A DNA stretch of 64,000 nt from NCBI RefSeq assembly GCF_006345805.1, contig NW_021833271.1:28426-92425 (forward strand), given 5' to 3'. This document shows positions 3,121 through 60,436 of this stretch, one piece after another. A model generated the notes under the pieces. That model saw only the letters and a list, made by a program, of their open reading frames with translations, was not told where the DNA came from and did not search any database. The stretch comes from Octopus sinensis. Taxonomy: Eukaryota. Both the position numbers and the translations under genes were made by a program. Numbering within the stretch: position 1 is the stretch's first letter; the number at the start of each line of letters is the position of its first letter.

Positions 3121-3368
3121 ATCCACCTGATATTACTGCACCAGATAATGTGACATTATTTGAGAATCAAGCATCCATTATAGACTGTAATGCAAAAGGA
3201 AACCCTACCCCAGAAGTGTGGTTGGAGAATGAAAATCGAAATTCCTTTCAAATTCAATATTAACTTTTAATCGTAAAAATATCAGTCGTGTTTTCTGCTC
3301 TGCCATTGCAAAGAGTGAAAAGAATGGAAATTTCCGAGATAGAAAGGAAATTAATATCCTGTTGAAAT
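3121..3368 (+). CDS. IgSF receptor exon A: Ig-like domain with a 1-nt frameshift in the A-run at 3232-3235
   Basis: Poly-T tract + TAG acceptor at 3120; GTATGT donor at 3369; phase 1 at both ends. Reads PPDITAPDNVTLFENQASIIDCNAKGNPTPEVWLENE and, after adding one A, KSKFLSNSILTFNRKNISRVFCSAIAKSEKNGNFRDRKEINILLK. Shows B-strand C, C-strand W and F-strand C. Confidence 0.85.
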
Positions 3369-8442: not shown

Positions 8443-8694
8443 ATCCTCCTCAAGTAAACTTTAATATTTCAAAAAAGACAAATAAAATAATAATTAGTTG
8501 CACTGCATCTGGTGGAAATCCAGCAAATCATAAATATGAACTGAAGCAAAAATGGGGAAACACCACTAAGAATACTTATGATATAAAAGTATTATCTATA
8601 AACAATCCTTCCTTCAGTAATACTGGTACATGGGAGTGTCATGTAAGCAATGATGATTTTATTGTGATTAAGTCATCAAACTACAAAATTTCAG
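8443..8694 (+). CDS. IgSF receptor exon B: Ig-like domain, GC splice donor
   Basis: The T-rich acceptor ends AG at 8442. The frame is open: (Y)PPQVNFNISKKTNKIIISCTASGGNPANHKYELKQKWGNTTKNTYDIKVLSINNPSFSNTGTWECHVSNDDFIVIKSSNYKIS, with C..W..(N/D)xGxWxC. It ends CAG|GCAAGT in phase 1 and joins exons A and C in frame (LLK-Y-PP; KIS-V-RP). Confidence 0.9.
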
Positions 8695-16146: not shown

Positions 16147-16455
16147 TGAGACCTATGTTCAGTTCAGGATCAAATTGTCCAAAAAAGAGAAATGTTTCCA
16201 ATGGAGAAACTGTAATTTTGAAACAGTGTTTTTATTCGCATCCAAAATCTGATGTAAAATGGCAGAAAAATGAGGAATCAATTGACTCAAACAAATATTT
16301 AATAACTGATTATTTACAAGATGAGTTTCCTTTCAAAGGAAGCTGTACTAGTTTGAAGATAGAAGACACCAAAGATGATGTTATAGATACTTATACCTTA
16401 ACAGTGGAAAACTCAGAAGGAAAAGAAACTGTTGTTTTTACTTTGAGATATAAGA
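16147..16455 (+). CDS. IgSF receptor exon C: membrane-proximal Ig-like (I-set-like) domain lacking the F-strand Cys
   Basis: Poly-T + CAG acceptor at 16146; A|GTAAGT donor at 16456; phase 1-1. Reads RPMFSSGSNCPKKRNVSNGETVILKQCFYSHPKSDVKWQKNEESIDSNKY...SLKIEDTKDDVIDTYTLTVENSEGKETVVFTLRYK. Confidence 0.9.
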
Positions 16456-23292: not shown

Positions 23293-23394
23293 AAAAGCAA
23301 GAAATACCTATGGAAATAATTATTGGTTGCAATGTCGGAATTGTATTATTATTAATAATAATGGGTCTTACTTATATATTCTACAAAAGAAGAG
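23293..23394 (+). CDS. IgSF receptor exon D: transmembrane helix with basic stop-transfer residues
   Basis: cttttcAG acceptor at 23292; G|GTTTGT donor at 23395; phase 1-1. Reads (K)KQEIPMEIIIGCNVGIVLLLIIMGLTYIFYKRR and is in frame with exon C. Confidence 0.88.
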
Positions 23395-27900: not shown

Positions 27901-30274
27901 TACTCTTTTACTCTTTTACTCTTTTACTTGTTTCAGCCATCCGGCTGAGGCCATGCTGGGGCACCGCCCTTGTTGCTACCCTCTCTAAGTCCAGTTTGCC
28001 GTGGCTGGCCACTGATCTAAGAGAGAGTTTGTAGCTGCTGCCCTTAGGTTACCTTCGTACCTTGCAGTGGGTTCATCTGGGATCCCGGAAAGCAGCTTGT
28101 CTAGATGTTTTTTGAAAATGTCCACATCCGCATCATGTAGATTCGTTCCATGACCTTACTTATGTGTGACGTCAGGGAGACTGGCCTGTAGTTTTTGGCC
28201 TCTGCTCTACTCCCTCCTTTGTGGATAGGGCATATGGTGCCTTCTTTTAGCGCCCTGGGCAGTTTACCGTTAGCCAAGGAACCACTGAAGAGCTTCTTCA
28301 GTGGTCCCGCTAGGGCATGCCTGCATGTTTGTAGGAGGACTGCTGGGAATCCATCTGGTCCAGCAGCTGAGTTTATTCTCATTTCTTCTATGGCAGATAT
28401 TACATCCCTCTCTGTTATTTCTATGTGGTCGATGGTTGTTGTTTGGTTTTGGAGTGTTGTGGCATCAAAGAAAACTTCTGGGTTTGTGATTTGCATGTGC
28501 CCCAGAGGGGATGTGAACACACTTTTATACTGTTCCTTTAGTATTTCACTTATCCCTTGGGGGTCCTCAGTTAGAGAGCCCTTTTTATCAAAGAGTGGGC
28601 CAATCTTGCAGTGTACCGAGGTGCTTTCTTTCGCAAATTTAAAGAAGGCTTTAGGGTTTGTTTTAATATTCTCTATGGCCCTGGCTTCTCTCTCTGCCCT
28701 CTCCTTCTCATAGGAAAGTTTGAGTGCAGTTTCCGTTTCAAAAAGTTTCAGGTGGAGACCCTCATTGTTTCTCTGCCGTGCATTCAGTTGCTTCGAGAGC
28801 TTAGCTCTTCGCCTCATAAGTATTTTCCTGTCTCTGGGAATAACGTTCCTATGCCCGCTGGCTTTTTTCTCCGGGACAAACTTATGGCATATGTTCTGTA
28901 TTGTTGTCATGAAATGTTGGAAATGTGTGTTGGTGTCTTGTGTGGTGATGAAGTCACTCCAGTCATGTTTTCGGATCTCTTCGTTTATCTTCTTCCAGTT
29001 TGCCTTATGGAAGTTTAGACTGGATAGACCTGTGGTATTTTCTAATGGCTGCGTCTCAACTAACTCTCTCATACCATATATCATTACCTCTACTAAGTTG
29101 TGATCTGAGAGAATTGTTGGTGTTACCATTATGTTGTGGATGAGCATCAGGTTGCTTGTGAAACAGAGGTCCAAGACATTCTCACCTCTTGTTGGCCGAA
29201 GCACTGCTTGTTCCATGAAAAACTTGCGTGTGAGAGCCAACAAGGACTCTGTCTGTCTCTGTTCAAGTGATGTCATTCCAGGGAGAAGATGGCCATCTGG
29301 CCATTTGACTTTCGGAAGGTTAAAATCTCCCAGCAGTAGAATGGTGTTACCTTGGTCCAGTTTGTCCAGGACTTCTTCTATTCTTCTGAGGCTATCTTCA
29401 AACACTCCTTCATGACTAGGGGTGTCTGGTGGCCGATATGTGACACATATTACTATTTTCGGTTGTTTCATGTGTACTATCAGTGTGTCACAGACTGAGT
29501 TTGAGTGTGTCAACAGTACTATGGGTGTGACATCTTCACGGACGTACAGGGCAACCCCACCATGAGTTCTTTCCTTCCTGTCTGACCGAAAAACAGTATA
29601 CTTTGGTACGTGTATTTCTGCATCTGCTATACTGCTTGACAGGTGCGTTTCAGTCAGCGCTATGCATATTGCATGGTTGCTTGTGCTTAAGTCCCTAAGG
29701 TAAGGAATTTTACTCATATTAGTGGGTTTCACCAGACCTCTGACATTCAGCAGAAGCACTGGTGAGATATTTGGGGTGTCAATAAAGGCTGACGGTGTGG
29801 CACCTGGGCTGGTGTCAGCGGTGGCCACCCTGGGTCCCTTGATTGTGGTGGTCTTGAGTGCTGTTGTGAGTGCCCCTGGCTCTGAAGACGATGTATCCAG
29901 GCCAGTTGTCCCTCAATTTTCTCTGCTATTTCCACAAAATTTCTTTGTTCTGCTGCTGCCGTCTGCATTTCCTCTGCAAATGTGCGCCTTCTCCTTGTTG
30001 GGGCATTACGCACTATGTCTGCATATTTCTGGGGCAGCTTGTATTTGTTCTGGTTTTGGTTTCGGTCTTGGTTTTGGTTAAGGCATTTTGGTCGAATGGG
30101 TTTGATGCAATTTCCATAGGGCCTGGGATGAGCGAACCTGCATCCTTCTCCTGTTTCTCCATGCCAGCAGGTTCCATTCCGGAAGAATTTGCATGTTATC
30201 TGGGTTTTCTTGTCCCCAGTTCCTCTCTGTTTTCTCTTCCTCCGTTGGACGGTTGTCCACTGGTTCCTTTCTGC
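27901..30274 (-). mobile_element. CR1/L2-group LINE: CCCH-finger ORF1 remnant, intact APE endonuclease, RT internally deleted, (AAAAGAGT)n tail
   Basis: ORF 28101-29828 has LLLNVRGL, LTETHL, RSDR..GGVALYV, YRPP, GDFNLP, PTRGENVLDL, SDHNLV, GPDGFP and NYRPVSLTSHISKVMER. It then jumps (~28140) to the C-terminal DIFK..LDKLLSGIPDEP...RAAATNSLLDQ. Upstream is CKFFRNGTCWHGETGEGCRFAH. Confidence 0.92.
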
Positions 30275-38300: not shown

Positions 38301-39399
38301 CACTTTTTTATTTTATTTTATTTTATTTTATTTTATTTTATCTTATTTTATAATTATTTTGTGAATTTAATAGGACTTCATCAGCAAAAGGTAAGTTTTG
38401 TTTTTAAGAAATTTGCATGAGGAAAAGATGAATTTAGTTAGACAGACAAATTATTAAGAGACCATGTTGCAAAAAAGTAAGATATTAAGTGGTCAACCAT
38501 CAAGAACAATTCGTTCTACATAAATGCAGCCATAGGTACTCATAATCAGTTCAGGTAAAGGTTTTGGAGAAAAGTTCCTAACATAAAAGCAGAGCCTAGA
38601 ATGAAAGGGCCTAAAGGTTACTTTGGCAAAAATGAAATTTTTAGCTTGCAGAAAATAAAAAAAAACACTATTCCAAACTGGATGTAGCCACACTCATTAT
38701 GTAGAAAGGGAGCCAGTAAACACTCTATACTATATAACCAATGTAAACAATAAGTACACAAAAAGTACAAGACAGGCTTATAGAGAAAGGGATTTCATTC
38801 ATAAAAGCACTCCCAAGAAATAAAGGAAATTTCTCAAGTTTGATAATAGTTGGTATCTTCCATAACTTAACTGTCTTAATCAGCATTAGAAATGAGTGTT
38901 GTGAAAGCATAATAGGTGGAGTAAGGATAGGTTATAAAAGTCCAGGGAGCAACTGCCTTTGTTGACAACAGAGAGGTTCTCTCTGTGGATGCTAAATGTC
39001 CGGAAAGAAATGCATCAGGTATATTCCAGTTGTATAGACAACATGCATAACATCATCATCATCGTTGTCGTTTAACATCCACTTTCCATGCTGGCAAGGG
39101 TAGGACAGTTTGATAGGAGCTGGCGAGGCAGAATCCTGCACCAGACTTCTTTTACTGTTTGGGCAGGATTTTTACAGCTGGATGCCCTTCCTAACACCAA
39201 CCACTCACCAGAGTGGGCTTAGTGATTTTTACATGGCACAAGCACAGGCAAGGTCAGTTTTGGAAAGGTTTGGATGCCCTTAGAAATGCTAACCATTTTT
39301 CGGTGTAGACTGGATGCTTTTTAAGTGGCCAAGAGGACAGGATTTGGAAGTGGAAGGTAAGCATAGTGTATGAAGTGGAAATGCAAGGAAGAGACATAA

Positions 39400-47525: not shown

Positions 47526-48351
47526 TCCCCACCTACTCTGTCTCCCGTGCAACCTGGATAAATTTTCATTCCAAACATCAGTTATACGCATTATATGAAC
47601 TTCATGCATGAAAAAACACATGACCTCATAAACGTATGCTGCGCTCCTCTCACAGATATATATGGGTCTCACACATATCCATGACATTACAAGTTATATA
47701 CAAACTTATGAACCCATAACACCATAAGTATCACATGAATTATGTGAAAGATATGTGAAACCTCACAATAATGAGTACACACCCAAACAGACATACTACA
47801 GATCGAGAGTTTGCACCCGCTGACGGCTGCAGCAAAATTCAATTTTGGACTTTCTTCTATCGAAGGCATTCTAACAAAAATGCTTCCGTATAAATGGTGA
47901 AAATATTGTCAGTTTTTGTTTCACTTTTAACACGTAATACTGAAATAGTGGAGAAGATATGATATTGCTATGGGCTCGCCTTAAACAAGAAGTCGAACGT
48001 TTTTTTGATCATGAAAGTACATGGACCCTAAGTAAGGCATGTGTGAAGTTTGAATGAAATTGGTTGTGTAGTTCTCAAGTTTTAGGGGAACACACAGACA
48101 GACACATTCTTTTCTTAAAGGTACTGAAGATAATTATGTGACTATTTCAGATGAAGCTCTCAGTAAGTATAATTAACACCAAATAACAAATAATTTTGTA
48201 TTGGTTTCAATGTTTGGCACAAGGCCAGCAATTTTTTGGGAGGGAGAAATCAATTTCATCAACCCCATTGCTCAATTTGTACTTACTTTTTGTGTGTGTG
48301 TGTGTGTGTGTATATATGTATATGTATGTGTATATATATATATATATATAT

Positions 48352-49873: not shown

Positions 49874-50126
49874 TTAATTTTAGATACCATGCACTACACA
49901 CTGAAATAATAAGTTTTGCATTTTCCATTTCTTTTCTTAAAGGTACTGAAAATAATTATGCAACTATTCCAGATGAAGCTCTCAGTAAGTATAATTAACA
50001 CCAAATGACAAATAATTTTGCATTGGTTTCAATGTTTGGCACAAGGCCAGCAATTTTTTAGGAGGTAGAAATCAATTTCATCAACCCCATTGCTCAATCT
50101 GTACTTACTTTATGTGTATGTGTGTA

Positions 50127-50172
<46 letters not shown>

Positions 50173-50222
50173 ATTGAAGAAATGGAGTTGAACGAAGATT
50201 GAATAGAAATCGTTTTATTGCA

Positions 50223-50302
50223 TTCTACACGTGTTTCGAAAGGCACAATTTACCAAATTCCGATTGAATAATGAGACCATATTGTGTCTTTCTCTTCAGG
50301 AA
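50223..50302 (-). ncRNA. Hammerhead ribozyme, inverted copy
   Basis: Exact reverse complement of 52818-52897. Confidence 0.8.
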
Positions 50303-50482
50303 GAAATAGGAAATCCGTTGGAAAAAACAAAAACAGAACAGAGGCGGAGCAAAACAAATCGAACAAGGCTCCTAAGAGCCCATGGCCAAACTGTTTATCA
50401 ATGTATGTTGAAAACGGGTGGTGGGTGCGTTGAAGATTTTAACGGGTCAGGCAGCGGTCATTCCGGTGTGTGAGGGCATGGG

Positions 50483-52243
50483 GTGCCTATGGGTAGTTCG
50501 GATAGTGCGCAGATAGCCGATTTGGTCGGAATATATATTCTCTACGAATTGTCTGACCAATTCCCGGAGATCGCGGGCGGCCTGTATCGTGACGATTGTC
50601 TGTTTTACCTGCAAAACACCACGAACAGAATAGTGCAGAAAACTAAGAGCAGGTTAGCTAGGTTTTTTAATAGAATGGGCATGAATATAGTTTTTGATAA
50701 TGAACTCACCAAGGCTAATTTCCTAGACGTTACACTTAACCTTAATAGCGACTCATACTGCCCTTACCATAAGCCTTCTACTAATTTGAAGTATGTCAGT
50801 GTCTTCTCCAATCATGCCAAAACCGTAACAGACAATTTGGTTAAAAACATCTCTCTAAGATTGTCTGGCTTGTCCGCTAGTGCCGATATTTTTATGCAGA
50901 AAGCGGAATTTTATAACGCCGCACTATCCAAGGCCGGTTATAGGCAGAAGGTAATTTATATTGATCCGGCCCTTCCGATGCCATCATTCGGTCATCAGGA
51001 TAGGGCCGTCTATAATAACATAAACAATTTAAGTAGTGACGGGAGCGCGACGGGTGCTGGGGCAGTCGCTCTCGCATTTAATTTAGCGAACAAGGATAAT
51101 TATCGGTCCGGGGGATCTCACACTAACCCAAAACCCGTTATTCATCCGAGAATCACCCACCCGAATGCGAGAGCTGGCGTCCCGACCCACCACATAAATA
51201 GGAATAAGCATATATGGTTTGTAATTCCCTTTGGTAAGCAGATTAGAACTAACCTCCCCCTCATGTTTCGACAAGCCATCGCCAATAACTTCCCCAGAAA
51301 TTCCAAATATTACTCCACGGTTAACTCGCATAAAGTTAGGATAGCTTTCTCCAACACTAAAAACCTCGCCTAGATAATCGCCTCCCATAATAATAGGCTG
51401 CTTACTAAGACCCTATCACCTTTTTCCGGAGGCACAGCTTCTTCCGCTCCCGGTTTAATGCTCAGTAGGAATAATAATAGTAGCAATAATGATATGAGAG
51501 CCAGTACAGTGACTCATAATCTCAGCTCCAACCAGGGATTATATGCTAGGGGTATAGTTATAAATAAGGGTGTTGTCATTGACGGTAGCAATGGCAGTAG
51601 TGAGGTGAGCGCAGCTCGGCTCGTTAGGGTAGAGAGTCCCAATAGCAACTCCAGCATCGTTTCCGGCAATAGCAGCACCACGGGCACTAGCAATGACAGC
51701 ACTCTGATTGATAGTGTAGAATCAGGGGTTATTCCGTTAGTTAACAGTGACGTAGTGGAAAATAAAGTAGTAAGCGGCTGCAGTTCTCGCAACAAATATA
51801 GTGACAGTAACACAGTTCTAATTTCAGAAACTAATCCTAACAGAATAAGGTTCACGTCGGTGAACTCCAAGATCAGAAGCGCCGTCTACCAATGCAAGGT
51901 TTACACGGACTCAGATGTCTACGCTTATGTCGGGGCCTCATCGTCAAGATTGGCCTTACGAATCTCCAACCATTACGCAACTTTTCGAGACGTGAATAAA
52001 CGCCAGACCACGGGACTTAGCAAGCTAATATGGCGATTGAAGAATACGAACTCAAGCTACAGGCTGGAATGGTCAATTTTGTCGGTGGCCCTCCCATTTG
52101 ACAGGGGCAGAAGGAAGTGCAACCTTTGTGTCTCCGAACTCTTCCATATATTGTTCGCCAGAGACCGGATGGTAAACGGACTTTTACAGTCGGCTTTTCG
52201 ATGCCCCCATTGGCGGCGTTATACTTATCTTGCTTATAAATAA
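50483..52243 (+). pseudogene. Penelope RT C-terminal half + GIY-YIG endonuclease; one in-frame TAG at 51371-51373
   Basis: GVPMGSSDSAQIADL, GGLYRDDCL, NFLDVTL and YHKP, then AVYQC...YAYVGASS..RISNH...CNLCVSE...RCPH. ORFs 50483-51373 and 51458-52243 share one frame. Confidence 0.92.
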
Positions 52244-52817
52244 CGCTTATAAATAATACCTGCACCCGGTTACACTACTTATATGAAAATAGCCCTTGGT
52301 AATAAATTCTGAAAGAGCTTTTAAGAGAAATATGATTAACCATTGCAAGGGGAATTACTCCTGGGAGACGAATGGTGTTTTATTTTTGACGACGGGGGGT
52401 TTCTTTGACAAGGCATGATTAGACGAACACACGCACACATAAAATATTTTCTACCCCCTGACGGATTTCTCAGCAGTGACCAGAGTGTAGCGCTTCTTAC
52501 CAACTTGCGGCCGCACATATATAGAACAGTACACACACACATGTTTCTAAGTAGATTTTGTCTCGCCCCATATAATACACCTAATATTCTTTAAATAGTC
52601 AGAACTTTAGTCTCGGTCACAAAGAACATCTACGCACCCTGTGCCCTCACCCACCGGAATGACCGCTGCCTGACCCGTTAAAATCTTCAACGCACCCACC
52701 ACCCGTTTTCAACATACATTGATAAACAGTTTGGCCATGGGCTCTTAGGAGCCTCGTTCGATTTGTTTTGCTCCGCCTCTGTTCTGTTTTTGTTTTTTCC
52801 AACGGATTTCCTATTTC

Positions 52818-52897
52818 TTCCTGAAGAGAAAGACACAATATGGTCTCATTATTCAATCGGAATTTGGTAAATTGTGCCTTTCGAAACACGTGTAGAA
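52818..52897 (+). ncRNA. Type I hammerhead ribozyme in the Penelope terminal repeat
   Basis: TTC-CTGAAGA-[GAAAGACACAAT...ATTGTGCCTTTC, 11 of 12 pairs]-GAAAC-ACGT-GTA^-GAA. Predicted cleavage is after 52894; AATAAA follows at 52901. Confidence 0.85.
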
Positions 52898-53123
52898 TGC
52901 AATAAAACGATTTCTGTTCAATCTTCGTTCAACTCCATTTCTTCAATTCACTAATAATATTAAAATTCAATTATCCGCACCAACGCACGGTTGCAACACC
53001 ATATGGTTGTACCTCCAACCGTGCTGTCTTCTGCTGTGATTTTGCTACCAAGGTATCGGTTAAACTTTTGATTAATCTGCAACAAGATTATTCATCTTTC
53101 TATTTCACAAAATATATATATAT

Positions 53124-54600
53124 ATACGCACACAATTTGACCAAAAGTCACCCAAAAGTAAATCAAATTTCCATAAATACTCTCTGCTGTAATTCTGTAT
53201 TGACTCAAATGGAAAAATGTGTCACTCAAGAAGGTCTTCAGTTTGAACAATTTCCATGATGTTTTACATTTAGTTGCTTTTATTAAACCCATTCAGTTGT
53301 TAAACATAAGTAAATCTTGGAATTAAATGGTTTTGATTTGCTGTCCAGTGATTTTGGCCAGCCCTTAACGCATTGGGCTGAGGAATAATTCATAGGTCTT
53401 TTCTTCACATTTAACAATGTGCACGGAAATAAAATACATTGGCAAAACCTTTTATGTTATTTGAGAGAAATTTCTGCTCAACAAGATGAATTTTGATTTT
53501 TTAAATTTTATTGATTTTTGTGCATTTTCAGATCATTAAAATGCACTTTCAAGAGGTAAAAAACTTAGCATTTTCCACACCATTTGCTTTTTCATTTAAT
53601 CAATTTGTTAATCCTGCCAAAGCTGCTTTTGAGATTTGTCCTGTGTATTGAGAAGGAGCAATTTCTCAAACTACTACCCACCATTGGTTTTTGAGCTTCA
53701 AAAATGGGAATTTTGACCTCAAGGATGGATTACACAGCAGTCAACCAATTCAGTTCAATGAAGAGTGATTGAATCATCTTCATCACAAAAATTCACATAA
53801 ATATGAACTTACTGTGCTTTGAAACACATCTTATATATATATGTACACACACACACACATATATATATATATACGCACACAATTTGACCAAAAGTCACCC
53901 AAAAGTAAATCAAATTTCCATAAATACTCTCTGCTGTAATTCTGTATTGACTCAAATGGAAAAATGTGTCACTCAAGAAGGACTTCAGTTTGAACAATTT
54001 CCATGATGTTTTACATTTAGTTGCTTTTATTAAACCCATTCAGTTGTTAAACATAAGTAAATCTTGGAATTAAATGGTTTTGATTTGCTGTCCAGTGATT
54101 TTGGCCAGCCCTTAATGCATTGGGCTGAGGAATAATTCATAGGTCTTTTCTTCACATTTAACAATGTGCACGGAAATAAAATACATTGGCAAAACCTTTT
54201 ATGTTATTTGAGAGAAATTTCTGCTCAACAAGATGAATTTTGATTTTTTAAATTTTATTGATTTTTGTGCATTTTCAGATCATTAAAATGCACTTTCAAG
54301 AGGAAAAAAACTTAGCATTTTCCACACCATTTGCTTTTTCATTTAATCAATTTGTTAATCCTGCCAAAGCTGCTTTTGAGATTTGTCCTGTGTATTGAGA
54401 AGGAGCAATTTCTCAAACTACTACCCACCATTGGTTTTTGAGCTTCAAAAATGGGAATTTTGACCTCAAGGATGGATTACACAGCAGTCAACCAATTCAG
54501 TTCAATGAAGAGTGATTGAATCATCTTCATCACAAAAATTCACATAAATATGAACTTACTGTGCTTTGAAACACATCTTATATATATATGTACACACACA
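53124..54600. repeat. 747-bp near-identical tandem duplication
   Basis: atacgcacacaatttgaccaaaagtcacc starts at 53124 and 53871, and the copies differ at only a few bases. The first ~110 bp also occur at 49663-49775. Confidence 0.95.
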
Positions 54601-54775: not shown

Positions 54776-56169
54776 CACACACACACATATACATATATAT
54801 ATACACACACACACGTTCGTGCTGTCTACTTGACCTCCACTCTCATATCTTCTTCCATTCTGTATTTATAGTGATGATACTTCAGAATCAGGGATGCTGG
54901 TGTGTAAGGTTGTAAGAGTTTGGGAGAAAAGGAGGTGAATACAAACCATGGAATGAAACAGGTCAAATGAACATAGGAGTTTTAATAAATCATGAACAGG
55001 GAAAGGATTTACGTATAGAAGGGGACACAGTAAGAAAAAGGAATAGATGCTGACTGGAAATAGTACAAAGGAAAGGAAGTGGCAACTCACAGTACAGAGA
55101 TGGCAATATGTATGGTATAAATGTATGGTGTATTCTATTTTTGTCTCTTACAGCAGCAGCATAGCACTTTCGACAGGAGAATGATGGAGGGCTCATTATA
55201 GGGTCATGAGTTGTGGGGCTGGCAGTTGTGATTAGTGGGGAAATTAAGAAAGGGATACCAATTTGAAGGGTGGAGGATCATTTGTGGTAGGAACCTGGAA
55301 TGGATGTCTGTTGGAAGTGGCAGCAGATGTAAGATGTGGTGAGTAGTGGAAAAAGGGAAAATCAATAACAACAGTGGAGGTTAGCTCATTGATGGTAAGG
55401 ATAAAGGAGAAATGTCAATAGGAGGTGAACCATACTTAGGAGATGTTTTTAATGGCAGGAAGAGGAAATGTGAAGAAGAGAAAGATACTGTTTAGAAGAG
55501 CTGATTTAGTTCGGTTTCTTGGGGTAGCATGTGTGAAAACATTGTTGCATATAAAATATACACTATATAATAATTTGCTTGTTTGTTCACCTGTTATACT
55601 TTAGTTTGTTAGAGAGGTGGAAATGGAATGAGTGAGAGGTTCAGTAAAAGTGAGAGAGAGAGGGAGAAATGTGAGTAGAGAAGCAAGAAGAAGAGAGGAG
55701 TATAATAATACACTAAGGTCAAATGCATCACGTAGTTAGTTGAAGGGGGAGGCAAAGAGCAAGACACAAATACGATGAGAGGAAAGTGGGAGAGAGAGAG
55801 AAGTGTTAATGACATACTGTAGGGTGGAAAGAGAAAGAGGGAAATGTTAAAGACATGAAGATGGGAATTACATGGTTAAAATGTTTGTTGAAGAGGTAGA
55901 GAGAAAGAGAGAAATATAAGGTGCTTAGCAGAAGGAAATTTCAAAATCATATACTATTTTGCAACTGGAAGTGAAATCACTTAGCAAAATACAAATAACA
56001 ATCATCCTTTCTTTCTTAAATAGCTTTGCTTAATCTCTTTCGTTCTGTGGAATTTCCACAGATCTCACTAGTATTTTATTTTTTTTAGTTACTTTTTGTA
56101 CAATATCAAAATATTAAAACTATCCTCTCCAAACAATAAATGTGCACATCTTTCTATAATTTTTTGAAG

Positions 56170-56229
56170 CTAATGAAGAGCAATATGCTGAAGCTAGTGG
56201 GCCCAGTTATTTAGAATTGAAACCAGCAG
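56170..56229 (+). CDS. IgSF receptor cytoplasmic exon F1 (60 nt, tyrosine motifs YAEA and YLEL)
   Basis: tttttgaAG acceptor, CAG|GTAAGT donor, phase 1-1. Reads NEEQYAEASGPSYLELKPA. Paralogous copy at 58617. Confidence 0.8.
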
Positions 56230-56449
56230 GTAAGTATAAACAATATTGTTAGTACACAGCATGATCTTAGAAATTATCTTAAACATTAACAGAAAGCTAA
56301 CAGTCATGAAATGTATCATTCTCTAACTTTTATCTTTTAATATGTGTGTATGAGTGTGTTTGAGTCTGTCTCATTAGCATTTATTATTGTAGTATCAACA
56401 CAATACTAACATAACGCTATTTATTGTTTTTATTTCTAATTTTTTAAAG

Positions 56450-56491
56450 ACATGAAGATTTCTTACGTTAATGTTTCAAGGAAACCTGATG
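56450..56491 (+). CDS. IgSF receptor cytoplasmic exon G1 (42 nt, ISYVNV)
   Basis: T-rich tract + AAG acceptor, G|GTAAGT donor, phase 1-1. Reads (D)MKISYVNVSRKPD. Confidence 0.8.
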
Positions 56492-56593
56492 GTAAGTATA
56501 TAAGCAATCGAATAATAAAATTTCATTCATTAGAGCAAGAGTTAGCAAAATTTTGGTTCACTCTTTCTTTGAGTAGTAGAGGCAGCTTAATGC

Positions 56594-56951
56594 ATGTCTT
56601 TCATTTGTTCCAGTCATTGGACTGCAGCCATGCTAAGGCACCACTTTCAAGGGTTCAGTCCAACAAATCCACCCGAGTACTTATTATTTTTAAGCCTTTT
56701 ACTTATTCTATTGGTTTCTTTTGCTAAACTGCTAAGTTATGTGGATGTGAACAAACCAACACAATTGTCAAGTGGTGATGGGAATCAAACGCAAAGGCAC
56801 ACACACTCCCTTATATATATACCAAATCCATTCACAAGATTTTGGTCAGCCCAGGATTATAGCAGAATACACTCGCCCAATGTGCCTCATCATATGACGA
56901 AACCCAGACCCATGTGTTTGGAAATTAAACTTCTTACCTCACAGCCACACC
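56594..56951 (-). mobile_element. tRNA-derived SINE with a 3' tail shared with the CR1/L2-group LINE
   Basis: The head (rc) ggtgtggctgtgaggtaagaagttt matches 26958. The tail tttgttccagtcattggactgcagccatgctaaggcacc resembles the LINE tail ttgtttcagccatccggctgaggccatgctggggcaccgcc (27928-27968). It is absent from the duplicate cassette. Confidence 0.75.
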
Positions 56952-57947
56952 TAAAAACCTTTCAAAATATTAAAATTCCATTGCATATACGATAAACTTC
57001 TTACAGATATTCCTATTTAACTCTGATATTTTACCTTTTTATCAATCCTTACCCTTAATGATGTAGTTCATAAAAATTTATTTTGTAAGCGTTAATTTGT
57101 ACAAAAAAATCCAAATAATTAAGTAATAATGAATTCAGTAGATATTTGCCAAGGCATGAGACACAATGAATGGGAATAAATTTGCAATAGTAAATGTGAT
57201 TAACTGTTCTCCTCCAGTATCCAAAATCACTCCTGTTTATTTATAACTCTAGCAAGAAATTTATCTTAGAAAAACCCTTATTGCTCTAAACATATTTGTG
57301 AATAGCTTCCCTTAATGTTAATATCAGAACCAAATATTGAATTGATGGAAATAGTACATACTGTACTAAATATTGACAATTAAATTAGTGTTAGTACATT
57401 CTGAGATTATATCCTAGAGAAGTACACTTTGTACAATCAGCCTCTCAATAAGTTCTACTTTTACAAAATCATTAGCACACTCAGCATCCAAACTCTATCT
57501 ACTAATCCCTACAGAACACTGAAGAGATGGAGGATATTGTGGCCTCTTGGCAGAAACGGCCGTAAGGAACTGATATTTTATGTTTTACTTGTATATATTT
57601 GTGTAGCACACAGTCTTTGAATGTGTATGTATTTTTATAATACTCCCTTTTGTTTTGGAATAGATAGACTTAATAGAATGCCTACTGGCTGATCTATGTA
57701 ATTTTTGTATCCCCTCCATTTTCTTTTTGCCGGATATATATATATCATTCGCCATGATAGATCGCGAGCCACTAAACCTTTTTTATTTTCTCTCCCTCTT
57801 TTTATATTCGGTCCCTGTTTTTTCTGTGTTCCTTTCTGTCAGAGAGCATATGCTCGAAACGTAAAAGACTTTCTCACTTCCTGAGCATTAAACATCTGTT
57901 TGTTGTTTACACACCCATCTTTGTCTTTTGTTTTTTTTTGTAAATTC

Positions 57948-58004
<57 letters not shown>

Positions 58005-58137
58005 GAGTGGAAAATTTACTGGTAAGTGTGTTAAATAATAAGGCAATAAAAGAGAATGACTCTCCCCAGACACCACAAAATATGCTTCAACACACAAACT
58101 CATATAAAGAATTTTGCAAACCAAATACAAAAATGAA

Positions 58138-58470
58138 GAATAGAAATGGCTTTTCTGATAATTTTTCCACTTCAATAATTAGATGTTTATAAGTTTACAA
58201 TCAGGTAACACCTGAATTCAGTTAGTCAACTAAAGCATGATTTAGGGCAGTTGTTGAGGCTATTGCTTTTGCTTTCCTTTTTCTTGAAGGTTTCCACAAC
58301 AACAGTCCAGGAAGGAACTACAAAAAGAAAAGGAAAGCAGAAGCGATGGCCTCAGCAACTGCCCTCACCCATGCTTTGGGTAACTATTTGAATTCAAGAG
58401 TTACCTTTTTCTAAACTTATAAACACCTAATTATTAAAGTGGAAAATTATCAGAAAAGCCATTTCTATTC
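58138..58470. mobile_element. Foldback/MITE-like inverted repeat (second, truncated copy at 59867-60148)
   Basis: gaatagaaatggcttttctgataattttt...gctttccttttt is mirrored by aaaaggaaagc...aaattatcagaaaagccatttctattc. Confidence 0.85.
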
Positions 58471-58616
58471 AGTTTTTCAGATATCTAATACTGTACCAAG
58501 GGCTTTCTATTTCTTTTTCTACTATCTACATATAGCTGCTACTTTCTGTGTATCATCAAAATATTTAAATCACACCCTCCAAACAATAAATATGCCTTTC
58601 ATTTTATTTCTTGATG

Positions 58617-58676
58617 CTGTGGAAGAACAATGTGCTGAGGTTAGCGAGCCGAAATATTTAGAAATGGGACAACGAA
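58617..58676 (+). CDS. IgSF receptor cytoplasmic exon F2 (duplicate of F1; acceptor altered)
   Basis: VEEQCAEVSEPKYLEMGQR with A|GTAAGT donor. The position equivalent to the acceptor reads gATG instead of gAAG. An in-frame AG exists at 58624-58625. Confidence 0.6.
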
Positions 58677-58910
58677 GTAAGTACAATCAATATTGCATGA
58701 TCTTAGAACCTATCTTTAAAATAAACAGACAGTGAACTATTACGAAATATGTCACTCTCTAACTTTTGTCTATTAATATGCATGTATGTATGTGTGAGTG
58801 TGTTTGAGTCTATCTCATTAGTATTTATTATGGTAGAATCAGTACACAGCTATCTTAATTTAAATATTATTTATAGCCATGCTATTTGTTCTTTTTTTCA
58901 TTTCTTAAAG

Positions 58911-58952
58911 ACACGGATGGTACTTACGTTAACGTTTCAAAGAAACCTGCTG
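58911..58952 (+). CDS. IgSF receptor cytoplasmic exon G2 (42 nt, YVNV)
   Basis: ctttttttcatttcttaaAG acceptor, G|GTAAGT donor, phase 1-1. Reads TDGTYVNVSKKPA. Confidence 0.78.
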
Positions 58953-60436
58953 GTAAGTATATAAGCAATTTATTAACAAAAAATTACATTCATTGGAGCA
59001 AGATTAGCAAATAGTTTGGCTCATTCTTTCTTTGGGTAGAATATGCAGCTTAATATATATGTATGATTGAAATTAAAACTTTGAAGGTGTTAAAATTTCA
59101 TTGCATATGCAAAGAACTTCTTGCAAACATTCATATGTAACTTATATTTTACACCTTTATTTATCTTACCTTTATTAATGCAGTTCATATGCATATATTT
59201 TTAAAGTTTTATTTAAACAAATAACCCAAATTGGTATACAACTAATATTGAATTCAGTAGATACTTGCTTAGACATGAGACACAAAAAATGGAACAGATT
59301 TCCAAAGGTAAATGGGATCAGCTTTTCCCCTTCAGTATCCAAAATCACTCCTGCTTATGGATAACTCTAACAAGAATGTAATCTCAGAAAAACCCTTATT
59401 GCTCTAAACATATTTGTGAATGGCTTCTCTTAATGGTAATATCACCACCAAATATTGAAGTGAGGGAAAAAGTACAAACTGTACTAAATATTGACAGAAT
59501 TAAATTTACTGTTAGTACATTCTGAGATTATATCCCAGTGAAGTAAATTTTGTACATTCAGCCTCTCAATAAGTACTACTTTTACATAACCATTAGCATT
59601 TTTCTTGTAGAATAGAATTTTGGGTGCCACTTTACTAAGGAACCCTCTTTCCAAAGTCTAAGTTTGAAATGTCATATTAACCAAAATTACTCTTTGTTTA
59701 CTCTTGTTCATACCAAATAGATTTATTAGCCAATACTTTTCTTTTATGCAATATGTAAATAAGAGGATGAAGAACATATTCAGTACATGGACTCTGACTG
59801 GATTTAAGTATTTTTTGTTTCTAAATACATATATGTGGATATATATAATTATATTTGAAGAAAAAAGAATAGAAATGGCTTTTCTGATCATTTTTCCACT
59901 TCAATAATTAGATGTTTATAAGTTTACAAACAGGTAACTCCTGAATTCAGTTAGTCAAACAAGACATGGGTGAGGGCAGTTGTTGAGGCCATTGCTTCTG
60001 CCTTCCTTTTTTCTTGAAGGTCCTTCCACAGCAACAGGCCAGTAAAGAACTTTAGAAAAGGAAAGCAGAAGCGATGGCCTCAGCAACTGCCCTCACCCAT
60101 GCCTTGGTTGACTATCTGAATTCAAGAGTTACCTTTTTCTAAACTTATCCACATCAGATCTTGTTTGTTTCATTCATAAAATCTGCATCTCTTAAAAGGA
60201 AGTCAAATATCTGAAAATCGGTTATATTGATGTAGTTTACATGCTTATTCCTGTGAAGCCATGTACTTGTGGAGAAAAAATTTGATGAAAACTTTAAAAA
60301 AAACTGTGTATTTTTAGCCAATAGTGAGACAGAAATTTTCTGTGATGTAGCATTCTCAACTTAGTGGTGTCAATTTTAATGTTTTACCCTGTGAAATTTA
60401 TAGTTTAGCATCTGTGAAATGACCTGTTCATTGTAG

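What the first reader, a model, noticed from the sequence alone, without database searches (positions are those of the whole stretch)
56100..60150. Signalling tail grown by tandem duplication of a two-exon tyrosine cassette, with diverging motifs
Seen: a genomic unit (60-nt exon, 42-nt exon, introns, foldback) is duplicated at ~56100-58470 and ~58540-60150. Spliced, copy 1 reads EEQYAEASGPSYLELKPADMKISYVNVSRKP and copy 2 reads EEQCAEVSEPKYLEMGQRNTDGTYVNVSKKP. The YxxL/M-x8-YVNV spacing is built across the exon junction and kept in both. YVNV differs only by a synonymous change (AAT/AAC), while most neighbouring residues changed. Established: ITAM is YxxL/I-x6-8-YxxL/I; ITIM is (I/V/L/S)xYxx(L/V), matched by ISYVNV; pYVNV is the Grb2-SH2 site of Shc Y317 and BCR Y177; YxxM binds PI3K p85. 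Inference: copy 1 is ITAM/ITIM-like plus Grb2 and copy 2 is PI3K plus Grb2. All four exons are symmetric phase 1, so alternative splicing could combine docking sites freely.
Basis: partly seen in the sequence, partly recalled or inferred. Interest (0 to 1): 0.85.

Follow-up and report, generated by a model that had tools for sequence, protein, structure and literature searches.

The report
Octopus receptors with modular tyrosine tails
These duplicated mini-exons are spliced parts of the inner tail of an octopus cell-surface immunoglobulin-type receptor, from a gene cluster in which most members lost an ancestral, likely inhibitory tail end and multiplied tyrosine mini-exons, which would give octopus a predicted on/off receptor set tuned by splicing.

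Summary
The duplication and its exons are real and spliced, but they are a small part of something larger. The window holds the rear half of an octopus Ig-superfamily receptor gene (Ig domains, TM, tyrosine micro-exon tail), already modelled in RefSeq as 'uncharacterized'. It belongs to a cluster of about nine genes with 111 related phase-1 micro-exons in the stretches fetched (87 intact). Transcript contigs join A1-B1 (4 of 4 runs), B1-A2 and A2-B2 (3 of 4), and skip A2 (1 of 4). Stops are purged (0 of 28 cassettes against 17.8 expected) and two tyrosines are kept, but YVNV as a whole evolves at the intron rate. There is no strict ITAM. The window's A2 has lost its AG acceptor. One gene in the cluster, and the Argonauta relative, end in a tandem ITIM/ITSM-like exon. 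Window-type genes carry that exon only as a decayed remnant, yet have ectodomains 84-94% identical to that gene's. Best reading: a paired-receptor-like family whose likely activating members carry their own Grb2/PI3K-type docking tails. Binding, tissue and ligand are untested.

The parts
3121..3368 (+). Ig-domain exon D6; 248 nt, one base short in an A run compared with the C5 minus-strand copy (assembly error or real break)
8443..8694 (+). Ig-domain exon D7 (252 nt, GC donor)
16147..16455 (+). Membrane-proximal I-set Ig exon D8 (309 nt)
   Evidence: Pfam I-set E 6e-9, above cut-off; 12 matches in the genome
23293..23394 (+). Transmembrane exon (102 nt); no charged residue in the helix
36109..36127 (+). 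19-nt juxtamembrane micro-exon (phase 1 to 2)
   Evidence: also in six paralogues' stretches or models
38374..38390 (+). 17-nt micro-exon (phase 2 to 1), restores the phase
48121..48162 (+). 42-nt Tyr micro-exon T1 (YVTI)
49943..49984 (+). 42-nt Tyr micro-exon T2 (YATI), duplicate of T1
   Evidence: loose end in run X2 joins it to A1
56170..56229 (+). 60-nt exon A1 (YAEA, YLEL), AG..GT
   Evidence: A1-B1 joint in 4 of 4 runs
56450..56491 (+). 42-nt exon B1 (YVNV, predicted Grb2-type site), AG..GT
58617..58676 (+). Exon A2 (CAEV, YLEM); homologous acceptor is TG; in-frame AGs lie at 58626 (51 nt) and 58536 (141 nt)
58911..58952 (+). 42-nt exon B2 (YVNV), AG..GT
56090..58425 (+). Duplicated genomic unit, copy 1
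58540..60153 (+). Duplicated genomic unit, copy 2
58163..58446 (.). Foldback, likely a MITE-type intronic insertion duplicated with the unit (second copy 59911-60155)

Best explanation
The cassettes are spliced micro-exons in the cytoplasmic tail of an octopus multi-Ig transmembrane receptor whose subfamily carries only a decayed remnant of an ITIM/ITSM-like last exon, and the tail likely works as a splice-tunable phosphotyrosine scaffold of an activating-type partner in a paired-receptor-like family. Shown: the architecture, the splicing and one skipping event, selection against stops and for two tyrosines, the intact tandem-Tyr last exon in one cluster gene and in Argonauta, its remnants in the other genes, and a divergent first domain. 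Inferred: ligand binding clusters the receptor and a Src-family kinase phosphorylates the tyrosines, which sit after acidic residues. YxN sites (B exons) then recruit Grb2 and YxxM sites (A exons) PI3K p85, in the manner of LAT or CD19 but on the receptor itself and without an ITAM adaptor. The single ITSM-type gene would recruit SHP2-type phosphatase through two tyrosines 24 residues apart. Exon copy number, splice-site decay and skipping would set how many docking sites a molecule shows, so dose matters more than a precise motif code.
For: Continuous open frame from D7 through the TM to B2, matching RefSeq model XP_036355409.1. GT..AG joints: A1-B1 in 4 of 4 runs from 4 studies, B1-A2 and A2-B2 in 3 of 4, B1-B2 skip in 1 of 4. 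Eight isoform models of one paralogue differ only in the tail. 0 of 28 cassettes have a stop against 17.8 expected (0 of 400 simulations); both tyrosines are kept in 27 of 28 (5 of 400 simulations). 28 of 51 intact 42-nt exons are YxN and 18 of 28 A exons YxxM; YVNV/YxN is the classical Grb2 motif of LAT (PMC2194190, passages). Intact last exon with YAEL..TIYADL at C5:38.62 Mb, one strong match in the genome, and YADL..TIYADI in Argonauta. Remnants share a 10-nt deletion in three lineages. The ITSM gene's ectodomain is 84-94% identical to the window type. D1 is 45% identical among paralogues against 70-78% for D2-D8.
Against: No binding, phosphorylation, tissue or ligand data. YVNV positions 1+2 evolve at 1.01x intron rate (0.57-1.67) and the N+2 residue that defines Grb2 binding is not significantly kept (156 of 400 simulations); dN/dS is about 0.8-1.05. 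The TM has no charged residue and the tail is long, unlike vertebrate activating partners. Only one inhibitory-type gene faces about eight others. The test that the non-ITSM genes form one clade is mixed (rejected for D8, p 0.035, and D3-D5, p 0.031; not for D3+D4+D8, p 0.41). Profile relatives outside cephalopods include nephrin/SYG-2-like adhesion proteins. The window's own contig has frameshifts in D4-D6.
Confidence: 0.55

Rival explanations
1. The family is a set of adhesion or wiring receptors (nephrin/SYG-2/Sidestep-like) used in neurons or skin. The Tyr arrays dock adaptors for the cytoskeleton, and there is no activating-versus-inhibitory immune pairing.
For: Distant profile hits are named syg-2-like and nephrin-like. 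SYG-2, Dscam, Robo and contactin are among the top solved-structure matches (generic Ig likeness). Tissue is unknown.
Against: No FN3 domain in 5 of 5 proteins scanned. Fast birth and death of genes, a divergent D1 and loss of a tandem ITSM-like exon fit recognition receptors better than conserved wiring genes (inference).
Confidence: 0.22
2. The arrays are largely a by-product. Phase-1 micro-exons duplicate and decay freely in a disordered tail; selection only keeps the frame open and a few tyrosines, and the number and order of sites do not matter.
For: Exons evolve at 1.09x (A) and 1.14x (B) of the intron rate. 24 of 111 copies are broken. 9 of 11 A2-type copies lack the AG. Tail layouts differ among near-identical gene copies.
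Against: Both tyrosines are kept more than expected (5 of 400 simulations). Donor sites are slowed (0.55x, p 0.01). A cuttlefish relative has its own repeated YxN units, which suggests repeated selection for them.
Confidence: 0.18
3. One reading: copy 1 forms an ITAM/ITIM across the exon junction and recruits Syk/Shark or SHP2, while copy 2 has switched to PI3K plus Grb2.
For: Spacing of 8 residues fits. ISYVNV matches the ITIM pattern. YLEM matches YxxM.
Against: The second half-site ends in V. No strict ITAM in 10 of 10 tails. A and B exons are skipped independently, which would break the pair. YxxL and the ITIM-like -2 residue are minority states.
Confidence: 0.05
4. This particular locus is a pseudogene or an uncorrected alternative haplotype of the C5 115.6 Mb genes; the transcripts come from sister copies. 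This does not exclude the best explanation for the family.
For: One-base gaps in D4, D5 (three) and D6 relative to the C5 copies. About 98% identity to both C5 copies over most of the window. Nine cassette copies at 98-100%.
Against: All gaps lie in homopolymer runs, and the C5 copies have their own different gaps, as long-read errors would. The frame is open from D7 to B2.
Confidence: 0.3

Closest known systems
Vertebrate paired IgSF receptors (Siglec-5/14, Siglec-11/16, PILRa/b, KIR, Xenopus XFL)
   Same: Linked genes with very similar ectodomains and different tails, one ending in tandem ITIM/ITSM-type tyrosines; birth-and-death evolution; possible gene conversion (definition from passages of PMC13358205, and PMC2413239).
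   Different: Activating partners there have short tails and use ITAM adaptors through the TM. Here the non-ITSM members have long tails with their own YxN/YxxM arrays and an uncharged TM. No homology beyond the Ig fold was shown.
Botryllus fester co-receptors (FcoR)
   Same: Invertebrate clustered type I receptors whose alleles and splice forms swap tyrosine motifs (ITIM, hemITAM, ITSM, core YxxI/L/V after acidic residues) (PMC11507803, passages).
   Different: Fester-related, not multi-Ig. The passages seen describe 1-few motifs, not arrays of up to about 17 intact duplicated micro-exons.
Hydractinia Alr family
   Same: Clustered IgSF receptors with a divergent first domain, exon shuffling, alternative tails and tyrosine motifs (bioRxiv 10.1101/2022.03.04.482883, passages).
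   Different: 1-3 Ig domains plus an Fn3-like fold and true ITAMs; here about eight Ig-like domains, no FN3 hit, no ITAM.
LAT (and, from recall, CD19 and CD22 tails)
   Same: Several tyrosines in an acidic, likely disordered tail, with repeated YVNV/YxN Grb2 sites (PMC2194190, passages). YxxM sites on an Ig receptor tail as in CD19 (recalled).
   Different: LAT has no ectodomain and is one conserved gene; here the sites are duplicated exon modules that vary by gene, copy and splice form. A functional analogy only.
Oyster CgIgIT2
   Same: Molluscan multi-Ig TM receptor with a tyrosine motif signalling to ERK in haemolymph (review PMC11999971, passages).
   Different: Five Ig domains and a classic ITAM; homology was not tested.

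Membership tests
ITAM-bearing receptor | Yxx[IL]-x6-9-Yxx[IL] | tested here: not met
   Neither copy matches. 0 of 10 tails match the x6-8 pattern; one longer-spaced match in P0011.
ITIM-bearing receptor (window gene) | [SIVL]xYxx[IVL] | tested here: inconclusive
   ISYVNV in B1 matches the pattern, but only 4 of 51 intact 42-nt exons do, and the site is also YxN.
Grb2-docking tail (LAT-like) | Repeated YxN motifs | tested here: met
   2 in the window, 28 of 51 intact 42-nt exons.
Grb2-docking tail (LAT-like) | N+2 conserved beyond neutral expectation | tested here: not met
   23 of 28 keep N; 156 of 400 neutral simulations reach this.
Grb2-docking tail (LAT-like) | Phosphorylation and SH2 binding | not testable with these tools
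   Needs pull-downs.
Paired IgSF receptors | Clustered genes with closely similar ectodomains and different tails | tested here: met
   ITSM gene against window type 84-94% in D3, D4, D5, D8.
Paired IgSF receptors | An inhibitory-type member with tandem ITIM/ITSM-like tyrosines | tested here: met
   YAEL..TIYADL 24 residues apart in the octopus gene, YADL..TIYADI 25 apart in Argonauta. Argonauta fits TxYxxI strictly, the octopus gene as an L variant; the first motif has C at -2 and is not a strict ITIM.
Paired IgSF receptors | Activating member with short tail and charged TM that binds an ITAM adaptor | tested here: not met
   Uncharged TM and long tail. It works like a pair at most; it is not a member of the vertebrate kind.
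Paired IgSF receptors | Ectodomain exchange (gene conversion) between partners | tested here: inconclusive
   AU p 0.035 and 0.031 in two of three data sets, 0.41 in the third; long outgroup branch; gene models are predictions.
Paired IgSF receptors | Opposite signalling in immune cells, shared ligand | not testable with these tools
   Run tissues are coded; no assays.
Nephrin/SYG-2 | Membrane-proximal FN3 domain after the Ig array (recalled) | tested here: not met
   No FN3 family at E <= 0.1 in 5 of 5 proteins; D8 is followed directly by the TM exon.
Siglec/CD22 | V-set domain with the sialic-acid-binding arginine | not tested
   D1 has Ig/V-set look-alikes at 0.90-0.91 in the Atlas (a lead only); no structure model was obtained.

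The most novel reading that the evidence does not exclude
Octopus has evolved its own paired-receptor system. One SHP2-type inhibitory Ig receptor is flanked by activating relatives that dropped the inhibitory exon once, kept swapping ectodomain parts with it, and built LAT/CD19-like tails from one duplicating tyrosine micro-exon. Gene, haplotype and exon skipping then set the mix of Grb2 and PI3K sites: combinatorial diversity on the signalling side of the membrane, without ITAM adaptors. Cuttlefish reached a repeated YxN tail independently.
Probability: 0.3. Interest if true: 0.82.

Novelty: new variant of a known kind. Interest (0 to 1): 0.62.

Why it matters
Cephalopods lack antibodies and T-cell receptors (established knowledge), and no activating/inhibitory receptor family of theirs turned up in the searches made here. 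This cluster gives concrete candidates: named genes, one inhibitory-type tail, many activating-type tails and a variable first domain. It makes testable how an octopus tells self from non-self or tunes haemocyte activation. It also shows exon by exon how signalling motifs are gained and lost: one phase-1 micro-exon with Tyr at codon 5 has diversified into YxN, YAxI/V, YAKV and YxxM classes.

Tried and rejected
ITAM reading: rejected on pattern and family frequency. YVNV as specially conserved: not supported in the pair (P 0.27) or in 28 cassettes (1.01x). Foldback as a functional part: not supported; it looks like a dispersed MITE-type end. No run was on record as RNA (20 of 24 listed rows hold the I-set exon or part of it); the RNA claim rests on the GT..AG joints, not on labels. 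A contig in run X2 starts exactly where use of the AG 9 nt inside A2 would branch (record 23), but no such joint is listed: a hint only. Which acceptor the window's TG-type A2 uses is open; both RefSeq models start it 3 nt earlier, also after TG. Comparison of exon with intron between orthologues was not possible, because DNA of the O. bimaculoides locus could not be fetched. No structure model was obtained. Paper searches for six locus identifiers found 0 papers; topic searches listed none on this family. Subscription journals and supplements were not searched and could mention it. One look-up of earlier scan notes was empty. The last regular-expression scan for the YQ-stop exon printed nothing; that exon's distribution rests on the BLAST.
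Full report
Observation. The two units align from about 56090 to 58425 and from 58540 to 60153. One thing was missed: A2 has TG where A1 has its acceptor AG. In-frame AGs lie 9 nt downstream and 81 nt upstream, both weak by a simple splice score. The foldback's terminal 41 nt recur on many chromosomes while its inner part is local, so it is most likely a MITE-type passenger.

The gene. Upstream on the same strand lie Ig exons (3121, 8443, and 16147 with Pfam I-set E 6e-9), a TM exon at 23293, 19-nt and 17-nt micro-exons, and two 42-nt Tyr exons at 48121 and 49943. Spliced, the frame is open from D7 to B2 under all five treatments of A2 tried. All 17 named hits of the 18 in the first protein search that name a species are Octopus; two rows name none (one search lists one unnamed and one without a species). 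RefSeq model XP_036355409.1 (O. sinensis, 'uncharacterized', on a contig as long as the window's) already strings these exons together. Full-length relatives have about eight Ig-like segments; domain limits were set by eye, and D1 has only Atlas look-alikes among Ig/V-set clusters. The window's contig ends before the last exon. Two copies about 98% identical on C5 (115.58-115.73 Mb, inverted pair) show a third A/B cassette and a last exon that reads G-Y-Q-stop. The window contig has one-base gaps in homopolymers of D4-D6, so this locus may be an uncorrected haplotype or a pseudogene.

The family. The cassette has 42 matches in the genome (40 of 66 candidates scored; 9 at 98-100%), the I-set exon 12 (9 on C5) and D2 17. 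In the C5 stretches fetched, which cover only part of the cluster, DNA profiles found 111 micro-exon copies, 87 with AG, GT, 3n length and no stop. Layouts differ gene by gene, with up to 17 intact exons. The 42-, 51- and 60/63-nt classes cross-match weakly and mostly carry Tyr at codon 5 (43 of 51 intact 42-nt exons; 5 of 6 of the 51/45-nt class; 16 of 28 A exons), which suggests one proto-exon (inference).

Transcripts. Four runs from four studies were laid on the near-identical copy L038 (contigs; RNA is the tool's guess, but joints fall at the predicted GT..AG ends). A1-B1 is joined in 4 of 4, B1-A2 in 3 of 4, A2-B2 in 3 of 4, and B1-B2 skipping A2 in 1 of 4 (depth 14 against 36). At the same depth B2 runs on into a further B-type exon. 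A loose end in one run joins T2 to A1. L038 has AG at A2, so these data do not show that the window's TG-type A2 is used. Eight RefSeq isoform models of O. bimaculoides LOC106874069 differ by single 42- or 60-nt tail exons and the last exon (read support not seen).

Selection. 28 of 33 A-B cassettes were used (5 identical or near-identical ones dropped; exon lengths 60/63 and 42 were required, so frameshifted cassettes are excluded by design). On a tree from 314 intron columns, A evolves at 1.09x and B at 1.14x of the intron rate, donors at 0.55x, and YVNV positions 1+2 at 1.01x (0.57-1.67). Neutral simulation gave 17.8 leaves with a stop against 0 of 28 observed (0 of 400 runs). Both motif tyrosines were kept in at least 27 of 28 in 5 of 400 runs, each one alone in 31-32 of 400, and the Grb2-defining N in 156 of 400. 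Stops or frameshifts occur in 3 of 90 copies with both splice sites and 6 of 21 without (Fisher p 0.0014). dN/dS is 1.05 for the window pair and 0.82 over five independent pairs. So the exons are coding and the tyrosines matter; the surrounding motif letters are not shown to.

Motifs. No strict ITAM occurs in either copy or in 10 of 10 tails (consensus as in bioRxiv 10.1101/2022.03.04.482883, passages). YxxM is the common state of the A exon's second Tyr (18 of 28) and YxN of the 42-nt exon (28 of 51). YVNV/YxN as a Grb2 site is from PMC2194190 (passages). YxxM to p85, and tandem ITIM/ITSM about 22-27 residues apart to SHP2, are recalled.

The lost end. One cluster gene (C5:38.62-38.82 Mb) ends in an intact 56-nt exon and a last exon with YAEL and TIYADL 24 residues apart. 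The Argonauta relative GAB1598814.1, the only one that search returned, has the same end after two Tyr units, so this is likely the ancestral form. In window-type genes the 56-nt exon has lost both splice sites and 4 nt, and the last exon has lost its AG and 10 nt and holds a stop. Remnants also lie in the 39.93, 39.79 and 39.30 Mb genes, and the 10-nt deletion is shared by three lineages; none was found in the fetched parts of the 39.50 and 39.61 Mb genes. Seven non-ITSM tails end at the downstream YQ/Y-stop exon, whose flank resembles DNA just behind the ITSM gene's stop (60% over 269 nt). Yet the ITSM gene's D3, D4, D5 and D8 are 84-94% identical to the window type and mostly 57-84% to the more distant genes; one O. 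vulgaris model is also 91% in D3. A single clade of non-ITSM genes is rejected in two of three data sets. D1 is the most divergent domain (45% against 70-78%). A Sepia pharaonis relative has five repeated units, three with YxN, of unrelated sequence.

Mechanism. Shown: receptor architecture, splicing, skipping, purifying selection on frame and tyrosines, loss of the tandem-Tyr end. Inferred: clustering leads to phosphorylation, then Grb2 and PI3K recruitment by window-type tails and phosphatase recruitment by the single ITSM-type gene, with the number of sites set by copy number and splicing (confidence 0.55). The rivals are an adhesion or wiring role, near-neutral tail growth, and the ITAM reading.

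Known and new. It works like paired receptors (PMC13358205 and PMC2413239, passages), Botryllus FcoR (PMC11507803, passages) and Hydractinia Alr, but fails the vertebrate membership test for a short tail with a charged TM. The review PMC11999971 (passages) has no mention of octopus or cephalopods; the passages of PMC13428168 cover only the white body. Searches found no paper on this family; other papers were seen as listings only. Verdict: real, coding and spliced; a new variant of a known kind; interest 0.62.

Noticed in passing
window 58614-58676; RefSeq XP_036355409.1 and XP_029636947.2: Both public models start A2 three bases upstream of the homologous site, also after TG; a non-canonical TG acceptor in tandem with the AG at 58626 is possible but unverified.
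   Followed up: partly
P0037 (CAJ1099246.1, O. vulgaris): A model named adhesion GPCR G6-like carries this Tyr tail with a duplicated A1; probably a chimaeric annotation, not checked.
   Followed up: no
P0025 (CAE1168733.1, Sepia pharaonis): Related ectodomain with its own tandem ENGNEPQY-type tail repeats, apparently an independent amplification.
   Followed up: partly
G000 C5:38.62-38.66 Mb (L063-L066): The ITSM-type gene has a 51-nt exon class repeating LYAKVNK, which recalls the Csk-binding EPIYA-A/B context of CagA (recalled, untested).
   Followed up: no
G000 C5:115.575-115.735 Mb: Two near-identical window-type genes lie tail to tail as a long inverted repeat (93-99%); they differ in tail (YVKV for YVNV in one B2, AG or TG at the third A).
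   Followed up: partly
G000 C7:88,896,357-88,897,888 and C5:92.28-92.41 Mb: An inverted pair of D2 exons 0.9 kb apart on another chromosome, and two distant D2 relatives (33-34%).
   Followed up: no
window 50160-52960: Insertion with 330-nt inverted flanks (97%) around two long frames that look like a Penelope-type RT/GIY-YIG element (by eye); absent from the C5 minus copy.
   Followed up: no
window 53112-54158 and 573-2015: A 747-bp tandem duplication (99%) and a 98-bp tandem array in introns.
   Followed up: no
window 28101-29912 (-): 603-aa stop-free frame resembling a LINE endonuclease/RT, in the intron after the TM exon.
   Followed up: no
window 8694: The D7 exon uses a GC donor, shared with both C5 copies.
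   Followed up: yes
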